Source: Pseudoxanthomonas sp. (GTDB lineage Bacteria > Pseudomonadota > Gammaproteobacteria > Xanthomonadales > Xanthomonadaceae). Taken from it: a stretch of DNA of 64,000 bases. The stretch's first letter is position 1; every line of letters starts with the position of its first letter. Made by a program: the position numbers and the translations under genes. The stretch spans positions 58,827 to 122,826 of the forward strand of contig NZ_DASYGY010000004.1 in NCBI RefSeq assembly GCF_035999195.1, written 5' to 3'. Positions 28,938-32,357 of this stretch are shown in pieces. The notes under the pieces are model-generated. The model was not told the origin of the DNA and ran no database searches. It saw only the letters and a list, made by a program, of their open reading frames with translations.

Positions 28938-31415
28938 ATGCGTGTGCTGCTGGCCTGTCTTGCCTGCCTGATGCTGCTGGTCGGTGCCCGCGCCCATGCG
29001 CAGGATGTCGCCACGCTGCTGTCGCCCTCCAAGCCGAAGGCGCCGGAGGCCATCGCACTGGCCGACATCCCCGGACGCGCCGATGCCGACGAGCGCTATG
29101 CCGAGGAAGTGTCGCTGCGCGCCGCGCGTGCCGATCCGCTGGGCAGGCTGGTGCCACGGCTGGACGCCATCGAGAAGTCGGTGGCGGACAAGAACGGCCT
29201 GTTCGCCTACGGCGAGCTGCGCACGTTGCCGGTACTGCGGCTTGAAAGCATGGAGCGGCACTGGAAGTTCGACGCGCGCCAGTACGCGCGCTGGCGTGCC
29301 GACATGCAGGGCCTGGTCGCGCCCTATGCGCAGGATGCCGCCGAGCTGGCGCTGCGGCGCGCCGACTGGGAGCTGACGCGGCAGGGCATGTCGCCCGACA
29401 GTACGCCCGCCGCCCTGCGGTCGCGCGTGGACGGCGTCGCCGCGCGACTGCAGCAGGCCGAGCAGGCGCTGTCGTCGCCGCTGGCCGAACAGATCGGCCT
29501 GGGGCGCCGCGCCAACCTGCTGGCCGCGCGCATCCAGGCCGGCCAGCAGGCGGTAGGCGATGCCATCGCCTACACCGACCGGCGCCTGTTCCGGAGGGAT
29601 GCGCCGCCGCTGTGGAGCGTCGACGACGCCGGCGCGCTGCGCCAGGACGTGGCCGCCAGCCTGGGCCGCGAAGTGGAGTCGGAAAACCGCTTCGTGGCGC
29701 AGTACGCCGCTGCCGACTTGGGCAACCAGCGCCTGCTGTACGGACTGCAGTTGCTGCTGCTGCCCTGCCTGCTGTGGGTGGCATGGCGCCATCGGCGTCG
29801 CGGGCTGGACCCCACCTCGCCTTCGGCGACCGATGCCGAGCTGCGCGTCATCCGGCGCCCGTTCTCCACCTGGGTGCTGCTGTCGATGATCGGCGTGCTG
29901 GTGTTCGAACCCAACGCGCCGTTGTTCGTGCACCAGCTGGCGATGCTGGTCGCGCTTGTGCCGGTGCTGCGCCTGATGCCGCAGCAGGGACGCCGTCTGC
30001 TCGGTCCATGGCCGTATCTGGCCACCGCGTTCTACCTGCTGCAGCGCCTGGCCGTGCTGCTGATGGCCAGCGCCTACCTCTATCGCCTCTACTACCTGAC
30101 GCTCGCCATGCTAGCGCTGGCGGCGACGGGCTGGCTGCTGTGGCGTTCGCGCGGCGAGCGCTTCGCCGGTGTGGCGGGCCGGGCCGGACGGCTGGTGCAC
30201 GGGCTGGCCTGGGTCGCCGTGGCGATGCTGTTGGCGTCCATCGCGGCCAACGTGCTGGGCAACGTGTCGCTGGCGGAAATGCTGACGACCGGCATCATCG
30301 AGAGCGGCTACTTCGCCCTGGTGCTGTATGCCGCCGTCACCGTGCTGGACACCCTGCTGCGCCGGCTGGGTGCGCGCAGGGAGGTCAGGCGCCTGTGGCT
30401 GATGCGCCGCCACGGCGGCAACCTGCTGGACACGCTGTCGACGTGGGCGAGGGTGGCGGCCGTGGTGGGCTGGGTCGTCTACACGATGATCCGCTTCCGC
30501 CTTTTCCGTCCGGTCTACGACACCGGCAAGGCGATCGTCACGCACCGGTTCGAGTACGGCGAGCTGTCCATCAGCCTGGGCCACGTGCTGGTGTTCTGCA
30601 TCGGCGTGGTGGTGGCGGTCTGGATCGCGCGCACCTTGCGCGCACTGCTGCGCGAGGAAGTGTTGCCGCGCCTGTCGCTGCCGCGCGGCGTGGACAACAG
30701 CGTCGCCTCGCTCAGCTATTACGTGCTGCTGTTGCTGGGCCTGCTGGCGGCGTTGTCGGCGGCGGGCTTCAAGATCGGGCAGCTGGCCTTCATGTTCGGT
30801 GCGCTCGGCGTGGGCATCGGCCTGGGCCTGCAGGATGTGGTGAAGAATTTCGTCTCCGGCCTGATCCTGATGTTCGAGCGCCCGGTCAAGCCCGGCGACG
30901 CCGTCGACATCAGCGGCACCGCCGGACGGATACGCGCCATCGGCATGCGTGCGACCACGGTACGCACGTTCGAGGGCGCCGACGTGGTGGTCCCCAACGG
31001 CCTGCTGCTGTCGGACAAGGTGACCAACTGGACGCTGGTGGACCAGAACCGCCGCGTCGACGTGGATCTGGGCGTGGCCTACGGATCCGACGTCACCCGA
31101 GTGATGCAACTCTTGCAGGAAACCACGCGCAGCACGCCCGGCATCGCCGACGATCCGGCGCCTGCCGTGCTGTTCACCGGCTTCGGGGCCAGCTCGCTGG
31201 ATTTCGCCATCCGCGCCTGGACCCAGCGTTTCGACGAATGGTCGACGATCCGCAGCGACCTGATGCAGCGGCTGCATGCCGCGCTGGTCGGGTCCGGCAT
31301 CGAGATCCCGTTCCCGCAGCAGGACCTGCATGTGCGCTCGGTGTCCGAGGATCTGCTGCACTCCCTGCGCCGTCCGCCGGCGGCGGACAGGGAGGCCAGC
31401 GAAGATGGCCGCTGA
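28938..31415 (+). CDS. Large mechanosensitive channel, MscS family (MscK-like architecture)
   Basis: Signal peptide, helical periplasmic region, many TMs, [35 protein letters not shown]. Confidence 0.9.
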
Positions 31416-31869
31416 TGCCGGCAGCGTGCTGCGCACGCTGGGCACGTTCGACCTGGCGGCCATGCGCGGCCTGCTGCGCATGTTCGGGCGCGCGTTCGAC
31501 GACATGGCGACCTACACGCAGTCGCCGCCGGACGATGCCTACCTCGCCGGCCTGCTGGCCCGCGATACGTTCATCGCGGTGGCGGCGTTCGACGGCGACA
31601 CCGTGGTCGGCGGCCTGGCGGCGTACGTGCTGCCGAAGTTCGAGCAGGCGCGCAGCGAGGTGTACCTGTACGACCTGGCGGTAGCGGAAACGCACCGGCG
31701 TCGCGGCATCGCTACGGCGCTGATCGCCGAGCTCCGTCGGGTCGCGGCGACGCGCGGGGCGTGGGTCGTGTTCGTGCAGGCGGATTACGGCGACGACCCT
31801 GCGGTGGCGCTGTACACGCGCCTGGGCACGCGCGAGGACGTGATGCACTTCGATATCGAGGTGGAGTGA
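31405..31869 (+). CDS. AAC(3)-I family aminoglycoside N-acetyltransferase homologue (GNAT)
   Basis: [62 protein letters not shown] are hallmark AAC(3)-I segments. Confidence 0.85.
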
Positions 31870-31934
31870 GCCGCGGCGATGTCGAAACCGGGTTCCGCCG
31901 ATCGTCGAAGGCAGGAACGTCCCGGGAGTATGCA

Positions 31935-32357
31935 ATGAAACCGTTCTTCGATGTCCAGCGTATCGACCATGTCGTGCTGCGCGTGCGCGACCTGGATTGT
32001 AGCGTCCGCTTCTATGGCGACGTGCTCGGCTGTCCGGTGGAAAGACGCCGCGAGCATCTCGGACTGGTCCATCTGCGCGCAGGCACCTCGATGATCGACC
32101 TGGTCTGCATCGACGGGACGCTCGGCGAGCGCGGTGGCGCGGCGGCCGGGCGCGAAGGGCGCAACCTCGACCATCTCTGCCTGCGCATCGAGCCGTTCGA
32201 CGAAGCGGCGCTGGTCGCGCATCTGGCCCGCTTCGGCGTCTCGCCTGCCGGTCCTGCCGAGATCAACTTCGGTGCGGAAGGCGATGGCCTGTCGCTGTAC
32301 TTCAACGACCCCGACGGCAACACGATCGAGCTGAAGGGCGCGTCGCGCCCGGGGTGA
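31935..32357 (+). CDS. VOC/glyoxalase family protein
   Basis: IDHVVLRV.DL; NLDHLCL; LYFNDPDGNTIELK. Confidence 0.88.
   Translation: MKPFFDVQRIDHVVLRVRDLDCSVRFYGDVLGCPVERRREHLGLVHLRAGTSMIDLVCIDGTLGERGGAAAGREGRNLDHLCLRIEPFDEAALVAHLARFGVSPAGPAEINFGAEGDGLSLYFNDPDGNTIELKGASRPG

What the first reader, a model, noticed from the sequence alone, without database searches (positions are those of the whole stretch)
31405..31869. Chromosomal, non-cassette AAC(3)-I homologue: possible reservoir of integron gentamicin resistance
Seen: long stretches match AAC(3)-I hallmarks ([29 protein letters not shown]). The gene has host-like GC and overlaps the upstream MscS-family gene by 11 nt. No attC-like GTTRRRY/RYYYAAC flanks or IS are visible. 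Established: aac(3)-I genes circulate as integron cassettes in pathogens. Inference: a native ancestor-type gene in an environmental Xanthomonadaceae chromosome.
Basis: partly seen in the sequence, partly recalled or inferred. Interest (0 to 1): 0.62.

Follow-up and report, generated by a model that had tools for sequence, protein, structure and literature searches.

The report
Chromosomal gentamicin-acetyltransferase homologue in Pseudoxanthomonas
A soil and plant bacterium (Pseudoxanthomonas) carries an intact relative of the AAC(3)-I gentamicin-resistance enzyme as an old chromosomal accessory gene, but it belongs to a very large environmental family that is already annotated and is not the source of the versions carried by hospital integrons.

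Summary
Window 31405..31869 (+) encodes a 154-aa GNAT protein that passes NCBI's AAC(3)-I equivalog model (232 bits, cut-off 200). It is 62-65% identical to AAC(3)-Ia/Ib/Ic/If. It overlaps the upstream MscK-like gene by 11 nt, has host-like GC3 (0.92), and has no attC, integrase or IS nearby.

The "ancestor/reservoir" interpretation is not supported.
- The gene sits in a Pseudoxanthomonas-only clade (100/96 support) that contains no cassette allele.
- Cassette alleles are polyphyletic and lie in other lineages.
- Cassette alleles have about 52-54% GC, against 71% for this gene.

Within Pseudoxanthomonas the gene is accessory. Six of 15 syntenic loci have it, always in the same MscK-VOC slot. 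The other loci have an empty slot or a 2-4 kb unrelated insert. The gene co-diverges with its flanks (dS tracks MscK) under purifying selection (dN/dS 0.17-0.29).

Chromosomal AAC(3)-I homologues are commonplace: over 7,000 protein clusters, named as such by NCBI in Pseudoxanthomonas, Lysobacter, Luteimonas and others.

Verdict: an ordinary new member of a known family. It probably confers low-level or latent gentamicin/sisomicin acetylation. Activity is untested.

The parts
31405..31869 (+). aac(3)-I-family gene, 154 aa (GNAT aminoglycoside 3-N-acetyltransferase homologue)
   Evidence: NF033083 at 232 bits, above the 200 cut-off. PF00583. PDB AAC(3)-Ia/Ib at E 1e-52 to 7e-60. 67 of 74 positions invariant among five cassette alleles are kept, and the other 7 changes are conservative.
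31389..31395 (+). Shine-Dalgarno-like AGGGAGG, 9 nt upstream of the aac start and inside the MscK coding tail
   Evidence: Read directly from the sequence. Purine-rich equivalents (GCGAGGG, GCAGGA, AGGGAG) stand at the same place in the five other aac-bearing loci.
31405..31415 (+). 11-nt overlap of the aac start with the MscK stop (ATGGCCGCTGA), suggesting translational coupling
   Evidence: The overlap is 11 nt in L090 and L001 and 14 nt in L003, L004 and L091.
28938..31415 (+). 825-aa MscK/MscS-family mechanosensitive channel gene, the conserved left flank of the variable slot
   Evidence: PF00924 and PF21082; NF008438 partial match. Orthologues at 74-93% in 13 Pseudoxanthomonas genomes.
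31870..31934 (+). 65-nt spacer before the VOC gene; not an attC. It is homologous to the spacer that follows MscK directly in species lacking aac.
   Evidence: The shared GTCGAAACCGG...GATCGTCG motif is present at empty sites L006, L007 and L009. No attC core sites. No promoter- or terminator-like site.
31935..32357 (+). 140-aa VOC/glyoxalase-family gene, the right flank of the slot. It is present with or without aac in sister species.
   Evidence: PF00903 at E 4.7e-12. Only weak sub-threshold Fos-family similarity (32.9 bits against a 180 cut-off).

Best explanation
The gene encodes a genuine AAC(3)-I-type GNAT enzyme. By homology it is a C-terminally swapped dimer that transfers acetyl from acetyl-CoA to the 3-amino group of 4,6-disubstituted aminoglycosides (gentamicin, sisomicin) and fortimicin-type drugs.

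It is an old, vertically co-diverging but dispensable accessory gene of one Pseudoxanthomonas sub-clade. It always sits in one chromosomal slot between an MscK-like channel gene and a VOC gene. It is most likely transcribed with, and translationally coupled to, the channel gene.

The slot exists in alternative forms in the genus: aac, empty, or a 2-4 kb insert with a TonB-dependent receptor. These forms are exchanged by homologous recombination through the flanks.

The gene is one lineage of a huge environmental family. It is a sister lineage of the integron-borne aac(3)-I cassettes, not their ancestor.

Shown: family membership, anatomy, distribution, phylogenetic placement, selection and composition. 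Inferred: enzymatic activity, substrate range, co-transcription, recombinational exchange, and any resistance phenotype.
For: Family and residues:
-. The acetyl-CoA motif R-R-R-G-I-A (residues 98-103), the acidic QADYGDDPA loop and the REDVMHFDI tail are conserved. A tail Glu contacts the drug in AAC(3)-Ia (PMC12378234).

Distribution:
- Of 15 syntenic Pseudoxanthomonas loci, aac is present in 6, the slot is empty in 3, 5 carry a roughly 4-kb insert (a ~855-aa ORF whose signal-peptide-like start suggests a TonB-dependent receptor, not Pfam-checked, plus a ~390-aa ORF), and 1 carries another insert of about 2 kb.
- The aac-bearing loci fall in one 8-row clade of the flank tree (93/93), and at least 3 changes of state are needed.
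- P. sp. F11 (aac) and P. mexicana (insert) are 96% identical in their flanks. Homology breaks about 55 nt before the MscK stop and resumes 6 nt into the VOC gene.

Co-divergence and selection:
- dS of aac against dS of MscK in the same pairs: 0.13/0.12, 0.33/0.26, 0.48/0.49, 0.70/0.51.
- dN/dS is 0.17-0.29. GC3 is 0.92, like the host genes.

Context and phylogeny:
- Every Pseudoxanthomonas-clade protein whose context was fetched sits in the same slot, including wastewater and root metagenome contigs.
- Pseudoxanthomonas sequences form a clade with 100/96 support and no cassette allele inside it (FastTree 96).
- The overlap and SD-like motif are conserved. No promoter or terminator signal lies between the genes.
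Against: - No biochemical or phenotypic data exist for this lineage.
- AAC(3)-Ia itself is a catalytically slow enzyme (kcat/KM about 0.05 per uM per s; PMC12378234), so the native role may not be resistance.
- Promoter and terminator scans use an E. coli-type consensus and are uninformative in a 69% GC genome.
- The only RNA evidence is a 721-nt contig from a library labelled RNA. It spans 31193-31910 at about 92% identity, so it comes from a relative and could be DNA carry-over.
- In one subclade the gene callers place the aac start after the MscK stop, so coupling by overlap is not universal.
- The rest of the host genome could not be searched because the genome tools were shut, so a second copy or an integron elsewhere is not excluded.
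Confidence: 0.8

Rival explanations
1. One reading: this is the native ancestor-type gene from which integron aac(3)-I cassettes were recruited, making Pseudoxanthomonas/Xanthomonadaceae the reservoir.
For: The gene is non-cassette, has host-like composition and has been resident for a long time. attC modelling in the literature assigns some aac(3) cassettes (aacC5, aacC6) Xanthomonadales-type attCs and finds such attCs in Pseudoxanthomonas genomes (PMC8352920). Luteimonas chromosomal homologues branch near some cassette lineages.
Against: Amino-acid identity to Ia/Ib/Ic/If is 62-65%. The Pseudoxanthomonas clade excludes all cassette alleles at 100/96 support. GC differs by 17-19 points. Closer relatives of Ia (80%) exist elsewhere and are already in a cassette-like array. 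No member of the clade was seen outside the MscK slot.
Confidence: 0.04
2. Recent horizontal acquisition: the gene was captured recently from a mobile element and only looks chromosomal.
For: Its distribution within the genus is patchy (6 of 15 loci), and very close relatives differ in slot content (F11 against mexicana).
Against: GC3 is identical to the neighbours. dS tracks the flanks across four divergence levels. The same insertion point, with a conserved overlap and SD-like motif, is seen in all carriers. There is no attC, IS or integrase. The Pseudoxanthomonas alleles are monophyletic.
Confidence: 0.03
3. The protein is an AAC(3)-I-like GNAT whose physiological substrate is not an aminoglycoside (for example a polyamine or cell-envelope amine). 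Any drug acetylation would be incidental and too weak to give resistance.
For: The family is present in thousands of non-producer soil bacteria in unrelated contexts: 59-61 different neighbouring Pfam families in 62 contexts. AAC(3)-Ia is catalytically inefficient (PMC12378234). The link to an MscK-type channel is conserved within this lineage.
Against: 67 of 74 residues invariant in clinically active alleles are retained, including the acidic drug-binding loop and the tail. The equivalog-level HMM score is passed. An environmental AAC(3)-I from a soil metagenome has been solved and deposited under that name (5hmn). The MscK link is absent outside Pseudoxanthomonas.
Confidence: 0.13

Closest known systems
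AAC(3)-Ia / AAC(3)-Ib (aacC1 and relatives; PDB 1BO4, 6BVC, 9MGS/9MGU, 4YFJ), class 1 integron cassettes
   Same: Same length (154 aa) and single GNAT domain. 62-65% identity over the full length. Identical [15 protein letters not shown] and [14 protein letters not shown] blocks, the RRxGIA acetyl-CoA motif and the REDVMHFDI swapped tail.
   Different: Not a cassette: no attC and no integron. GC is 0.71 against 0.53-0.54. It lies in a separate clade. It is embedded in a chromosomal operon-like arrangement with an MscK-like gene. It has not been characterised experimentally.
NCBI-annotated 'AAC(3)-I family aminoglycoside N-acetyltransferase' of Pseudoxanthomonas sp. (P0010, GCA_002863005.1) and of Lysobacter, Luteimonas, Sphingomonas and Ramlibacter
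   Same: Same family. P0010 is 81% identical and lies in the identical MscK slot. The others are 70-73% identical chromosomal stand-alone genes.
   Different: The non-Pseudoxanthomonas homologues lie in unrelated contexts (after hslVU, after an ABC transporter, after a MAPEG gene), so there is no shared operon.
aac(3)-Ih (named allele, found 100% identical on the 1.73-Mb replicon of Paracoccus denitrificans HAMBI_2443)
   Same: A named AAC(3)-I allele that also lies on a large chromosomal-size replicon, showing that non-integron AAC(3)-I genes are already catalogued. 68% identical to the window protein.
   Different: Its host is an alphaproteobacterium, and it forms a long separate branch in the tree.
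Environmental AAC(3)-I from a soil metagenome (PDB 5HMN, molecule name 'AAC3-I')
   Same: An environmental, non-clinical member of the same family with a solved structure (E 1.4e-48).
   Different: It is a more distant sequence whose host and genomic context are unknown here.

Membership tests
AAC(3)-I aminoglycoside N-acetyltransferase family (NCBIfam NF033083) | Full-length match to the equivalog HMM above the curated cut-off | tested here: met
   232.3 bits against a cut-off of 200; residues 10-153 align to model positions 2-145 of 145
AAC(3)-I aminoglycoside N-acetyltransferase family (NCBIfam NF033083) | Single GNAT domain of about 150 aa with the acetyl-CoA pyrophosphate-binding motif R/Q-x-x-G-x-G/A | tested here: met
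   PF00583 at E 5e-16; R98-R-R-G-I-A103 seen in the alignments
AAC(3)-I aminoglycoside N-acetyltransferase family (NCBIfam NF033083) | Conservation of residues invariant among clinically active alleles, including the acidic loop and the C-terminal swapped tail that contacts the drug | tested here: met
   67 of 74 invariant positions are kept and the other 7 changes are conservative. The role of the tail comes from PMC12378234. The individual contact residues are not named in that text, so the mapping is by block only.
AAC(3)-I aminoglycoside N-acetyltransferase family (NCBIfam NF033083) | Acetyl-CoA-dependent acetylation at N-3 of gentamicin, sisomicin or fortimicin, and a resistance phenotype | not testable with these tools
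   Needs an enzyme assay and MIC measurements
Integron gene cassette | attC recombination site directly downstream of the ORF | tested here: not met
   No core-site pairs in 28-36 kb or in the whole window, while the Ia and Ib attC sites were recovered as controls. The 65-nt downstream spacer is homologous to the empty-site spacer of sister species.
Integron gene cassette | Association with an integron integrase or a cassette array | tested here: not met
   No IntI homologue in the 64 kb. The neighbours are MscK, VOC, MotB and MotA. The rest of the genome was not searchable.
'Recent origin' of a mobile resistance gene (criteria of Ebmeyer et al. 2021, PMC7782503) | Near-identity (about 95% nucleotide or more) between the mobile gene and the chromosomal gene | tested here: not met
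   62-65% amino-acid identity to Ia, Ib, Ic and If; separate clade
'Recent origin' of a mobile resistance gene (criteria of Ebmeyer et al. 2021, PMC7782503) | Gene widespread in the taxon in conserved synteny, without mobile elements | tested here: inconclusive
   The slot is the same and free of mobile elements in all carriers, but only 6 of 15 syntenic loci carry the gene

The most novel reading that the evidence does not exclude
The MscK-VOC junction of Pseudoxanthomonas is a long-lived polymorphic slot. Its alternative contents (aac(3)-I, a TonB-receptor islet, or nothing) are swapped between species by homologous recombination. The aac allele carries its own version of the channel's C-terminal tail, so that the acetyltransferase is translationally coupled to a mechanosensitive channel. 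On this reading, selection by aminoglycoside producers in the rhizosphere maintains the polymorphism, and enzyme expression is tied to envelope stress or the drug-entry route.
Probability: 0.15. Interest if true: 0.4.

Novelty: new member of a known kind. Interest (0 to 1): 0.2.

Why it matters
The origin of integron-borne resistance cassettes is an open question; no cassette gene has a confirmed chromosomal origin (PMC7782503). A non-cassette progenitor would therefore be valuable, but this gene is not one. Its worth is as a well-documented negative. It shows what a long-resident, non-mobilised AAC(3)-I lineage looks like: host GC, co-divergence with its flanks, a fixed slot. It also shows that known cassette alleles are polyphyletic, of moderate GC, and closer to other lineages. 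It adds one uncharacterised lineage to the latent aminoglycoside resistome of plant- and soil-associated Lysobacteraceae, which large screens have already shown to be vast (PMC10400643).

Tried and rejected
(1) AAC-VOC as a conserved two-gene module.
- A VOC/glyoxalase gene follows aac here, in Luteimonas sp. R10 and in the 4-Mb chromosome array.
- These VOC proteins are not orthologous.
- In 62 non-redundant metagenome contexts, PF00903 was the commonest neighbour but was present in only 4 of 62 downstream and 3 of 57 upstream positions.
- I read this as mild co-occurrence of small accessory genes, not a module.

(2) A functional MscK-AAC link beyond this genus. No MS-channel family appeared among the listed upstream neighbours in the metagenome contexts.

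(3) RNA evidence for co-transcription. Only low-identity contigs from libraries of uncertain type were found, so this is not decisive.

(4) Whole-genome searches (a second copy, an integron elsewhere, the genus-wide distribution) were impossible because the genome search and the fetch from genomes were shut (notice). Distribution therefore rests on 15 syntenic loci found through the MscK gene and on exact-protein look-ups.

(5) Literature search for a described Pseudoxanthomonas AAC(3)-I or a gentamicin phenotype found nothing specific.

(6) The first FastTree topology put all non-outgroup cassette alleles in one 107-row clade. The more careful IQ-TREE run did not keep that clade and showed the cassette alleles to be polyphyletic. 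I rely on the latter. Both agree that the window's clade excludes them.

(7) Structure prediction was not run. With 62-65% identity to four solved AAC(3)-I structures it would add nothing.
Full report
**Observation**

Window 31405..31869 (+) is an open frame of 154 codons. The protein matches NCBI's AAC(3)-I equivalog model NF033083 end to end at 232.3 bits (cut-off 200, E 2e-69). No other family passes its threshold. Pfam sees a single GNAT domain.

The five best solved structures are all AAC(3)-I enzymes: 4YFJ (E 7e-60), 6BVC, 9MGS, 1BO4 and the soil-metagenome 5HMN.

The ATG at 31405 lies 11 nt inside the 3' end of an 825-aa MscK/MscS-family gene (28938..31415). An AGGGAGG motif stands 9 nt upstream of it.
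- A strict core-site scan found no RYYYAAC...GTTRRRY pair in 28-36 kb, and a relaxed scan found none in the whole window.
- The strict scan recovered the 109- and 108-nt attC sites of the aac(3)-Ia and -Ib cassettes as controls.
- No IntI homologue and no second aac copy lie in the 64 kb.

**Host and local synteny**

The MscK-like protein finds orthologues at 74-93% identity only in Pseudoxanthomonas (Lysobacteraceae). The best is P. sp. LH2527.

Fifteen Pseudoxanthomonas loci share the order DUF6630 - MscK - [slot] - VOC - MotB - MotA. The slot contents are:
- the aac gene in six loci (window; a 99%-similar root/soil metagenome contig; LH2527; F11; LjRoot168; GCA_002863005);
- nothing in three loci, where MscK is followed after about 65-80 nt by VOC;
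- a roughly 4-kb insert in five loci, including P. japonensis and P. mexicana, carrying a ~855-aa ORF with a signal-peptide-like start (probably a TonB-dependent receptor; not confirmed by a family search) and a ~390-aa ORF;
- a different insert of about 2 kb in one locus.

The 65-nt spacer after aac in the window is homologous to the spacer that directly follows MscK at empty sites (shared GTCGAAACCGG...GATCGTCG). The spacer therefore belongs to the VOC gene and is not a recombination site.

**Age and mode of inheritance**

A maximum-likelihood tree of the four concatenated flanking proteins places all six aac carriers in one 8-row clade (93/93). That clade also holds P. japonensis and P. mexicana, which carry the 4-kb insert, so at least three changes of state are needed.

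P. sp. F11 (aac) and P. mexicana (insert) are 96% identical at the nucleotide level through 8.4 kb of left flank and 95% in the right flank. Homology breaks about 55 nt before the MscK stop and resumes 6 nt into the VOC gene. That pattern is what allelic replacement by homologous recombination through the flanks would leave. The aac allele brings its own MscK C-terminal tail, which contains the aac ribosome-binding site and start.

Several measures point to long residence:
- Synonymous divergence of aac tracks that of MscK in the same genome pairs (0.13/0.12, 0.33/0.26, 0.48/0.49, 0.70/0.51).
- dN/dS is 0.17-0.29.
- GC3 (0.92) equals that of MscK (0.905) and MotB (0.91).
- The overlap with MscK (11 or 14 nt) and the SD-like motif are kept in all six carriers.

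Every Pseudoxanthomonas-clade protein whose context I could fetch is in this same slot, including several from wastewater metagenomes. I conclude that the gene is an old, selectively maintained but dispensable resident of one sub-clade of the genus. It is not a recent import, and it shows no sign of mobilisation.

**Relation to the integron cassettes**

Against plasmid records, the window protein is 63.9% identical to AAC(3)-Ia, 65.2% to Ib, 62.9% to Ic and 64.5% to If.

A search of the 5.8-billion-protein collection returned 7,088 clusters at E<=1e-3. More than a hundred are at 68-75% identity, and NCBI already names the genomic ones 'AAC(3)-I family aminoglycoside N-acetyltransferase' in Pseudoxanthomonas, Lysobacter, Luteimonas, Sphingomonas and Ramlibacter.

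A second search with a profile of five cassette alleles found their own nearest relatives. These include proteins 74-81% identical to AAC(3)-Ia, three Luteimonas species and Stutzerimonas.

In a careful tree (IQ-TREE, 104 rows):
- the Pseudoxanthomonas sequences form a clade with 100/96 support that contains no cassette allele;
- Ia/Ib/If group with metagenomic sequences and with P0143 in a 21-row clade (98/88);
- Ic, the OXA-198-integron allele (with Stutzerimonas/Pseudomonadaceae) and the P. aeruginosa HdC allele branch elsewhere.

Cassette alleles are therefore polyphyletic, and the window's lineage is no closer to any of them than dozens of other environmental lineages.

Composition agrees. 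Cassette alleles have GC 0.52-0.54 (GC3 0.55-0.63), against 0.71 (0.92) here. Published criteria for a 'recent origin' ask for near-identity plus conserved, MGE-free synteny, and no cassette gene has yet met them (PMC7782503).

Attribution by attC does link some aac(3) cassettes (aacC5, aacC6) to Xanthomonadales-type attC sites, and such sites occur in Pseudoxanthomonas genomes (PMC8352920). A role for the order as a cassette source therefore remains plausible in general, but this particular gene is not that source.

**How it most likely works**

By homology, the protein is a C-terminally swapped GNAT dimer. It binds acetyl-CoA through the RRRGIA loop and an aminoglycoside in an acidic pocket (QADYGDDPA), with a contact from the partner's tail (REDVMHFDI). 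It would acetylate N-3 of gentamicin- and sisomicin-type drugs (structure and kinetics of AAC(3)-Ia in PMC12378234).

Of the 74 positions invariant among five clinically active alleles, 67 are identical here and the other seven changes are conservative (A/G, Q/P, I/V, I/L, Y/W, I/V, K/R).

Expression is probably from the MscK transcript with translational coupling: the genes overlap, an SD-like motif lies inside the MscK tail, and no promoter- or terminator-like signal was detected. The consensus scan is weak evidence in a 69% GC genome. The only RNA trace is a 721-nt contig spanning the junction at about 92% identity in a library of uncertain nature. Activity and phenotype remain inferred.

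**Wider context**

Other chromosomal family members sit in unrelated neighbourhoods:
- after hslVU in Luteimonas sp. R10;
- after an ABC transporter and before another GNAT in Lysobacter sp. LF1;
- after a MAPEG gene in another Luteimonas species.

In 62 non-redundant metagenome contexts, 59-61 different Pfam families were found on each side. The MscK link is thus specific to Pseudoxanthomonas. This fits large screens that describe thousands of uncharacterised aminoglycoside-modifying enzyme families in environmental bacteria (PMC10400643).

**Verdict**

The feature is real and correctly recognised, but it is ordinary: a new, uncharacterised lineage of a known and already annotated family. The reservoir/ancestor reading is not supported. 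Interest is low (0.2). The only mildly unusual aspect is the polymorphic MscK-VOC slot, with an aac allele that includes the channel's own C-terminal tail.

Noticed in passing
L088:4868-7000 (NCBI GCA_964253225.1, OZ176244.1, 4.06-Mb contig): An AAC(3)-I 80% identical to AAC(3)-Ia (P0143; gene GC 0.53 in a 0.61-GC region) lies in a run of small same-strand genes: L-PSP, AAC, glyoxalase, hypothetical/PemK. The genes are separated by four repeats of about 55-90 nt sharing CAATTCATTCAAGYCGAA...CGGCTWA..TCAGGC. This closely resembles both ends of the aac(3)-Ia/Ib attC, although the AAC/GTT core triplets are partly degenerate. No IntI lies within the 12 kb. It looks like a chromosomal cassette array holding a near relative of the clinical allele.
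   Followed up: partly
L002:8412-12664, L005:8373-12645, L010, L016, L061 (Pseudoxanthomonas japonensis, P. mexicana and others): In these species the slot that holds aac in the window carries a roughly 4-kb insert on the opposite strand: a ~855-aa ORF with a signal-peptide-like start (probably a TonB-dependent receptor; no family search was run) and a ~390-aa ORF. F11 and mexicana are 96% identical in the flanks yet differ in slot content.
   Followed up: partly
window 31935-32357; L095:5718-6110; L088:6533-6919; metagenome loci L098-L177: A VOC/glyoxalase-family gene is the commonest neighbour of AAC(3)-I genes (4 of 62 downstream and 3 of 57 upstream in non-redundant metagenome contexts, plus three genome contexts). 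The VOC proteins are not orthologous to each other. This is probably clustering of small accessory genes rather than a module.
   Followed up: yes
L083:2989-3444 (NZ_CP141053.1, Paracoccus denitrificans HAMBI_2443, 1.73-Mb replicon listed as a plasmid in PLSDB): The named allele aac(3)-Ih is present at 100% identity on a chromosome-sized replicon with almost no annotation in the collection. A non-integron AAC(3)-I allele is therefore already catalogued.
   Followed up: no
trees: Integron-borne AAC(3)-I alleles are polyphyletic. At least four separate lineages have been recruited into cassettes: Ia/Ib/If; Ic; the OXA-198-integron type with Stutzerimonas/Pseudomonadaceae relatives; and the P. 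aeruginosa HdC type with an IS-flanked Moraxella relative.
   Followed up: partly
window 31193-31910: A 721-nt contig in a library labelled 'METAGENOMIC RNA-Seq' (run X22) spans the MscK 3' end, the whole aac gene and 41 nt beyond it at about 92% identity. This is compatible with co-transcription in a related strain but is not distinguishable from DNA.
   Followed up: partly
window 31935-32357: The VOC protein has weak, sub-threshold similarity to fosfomycin-resistance thiol transferases (NF000496, 32.9 bits against a cut-off of 180). That is not enough to call it a Fos enzyme.
   Followed up: no
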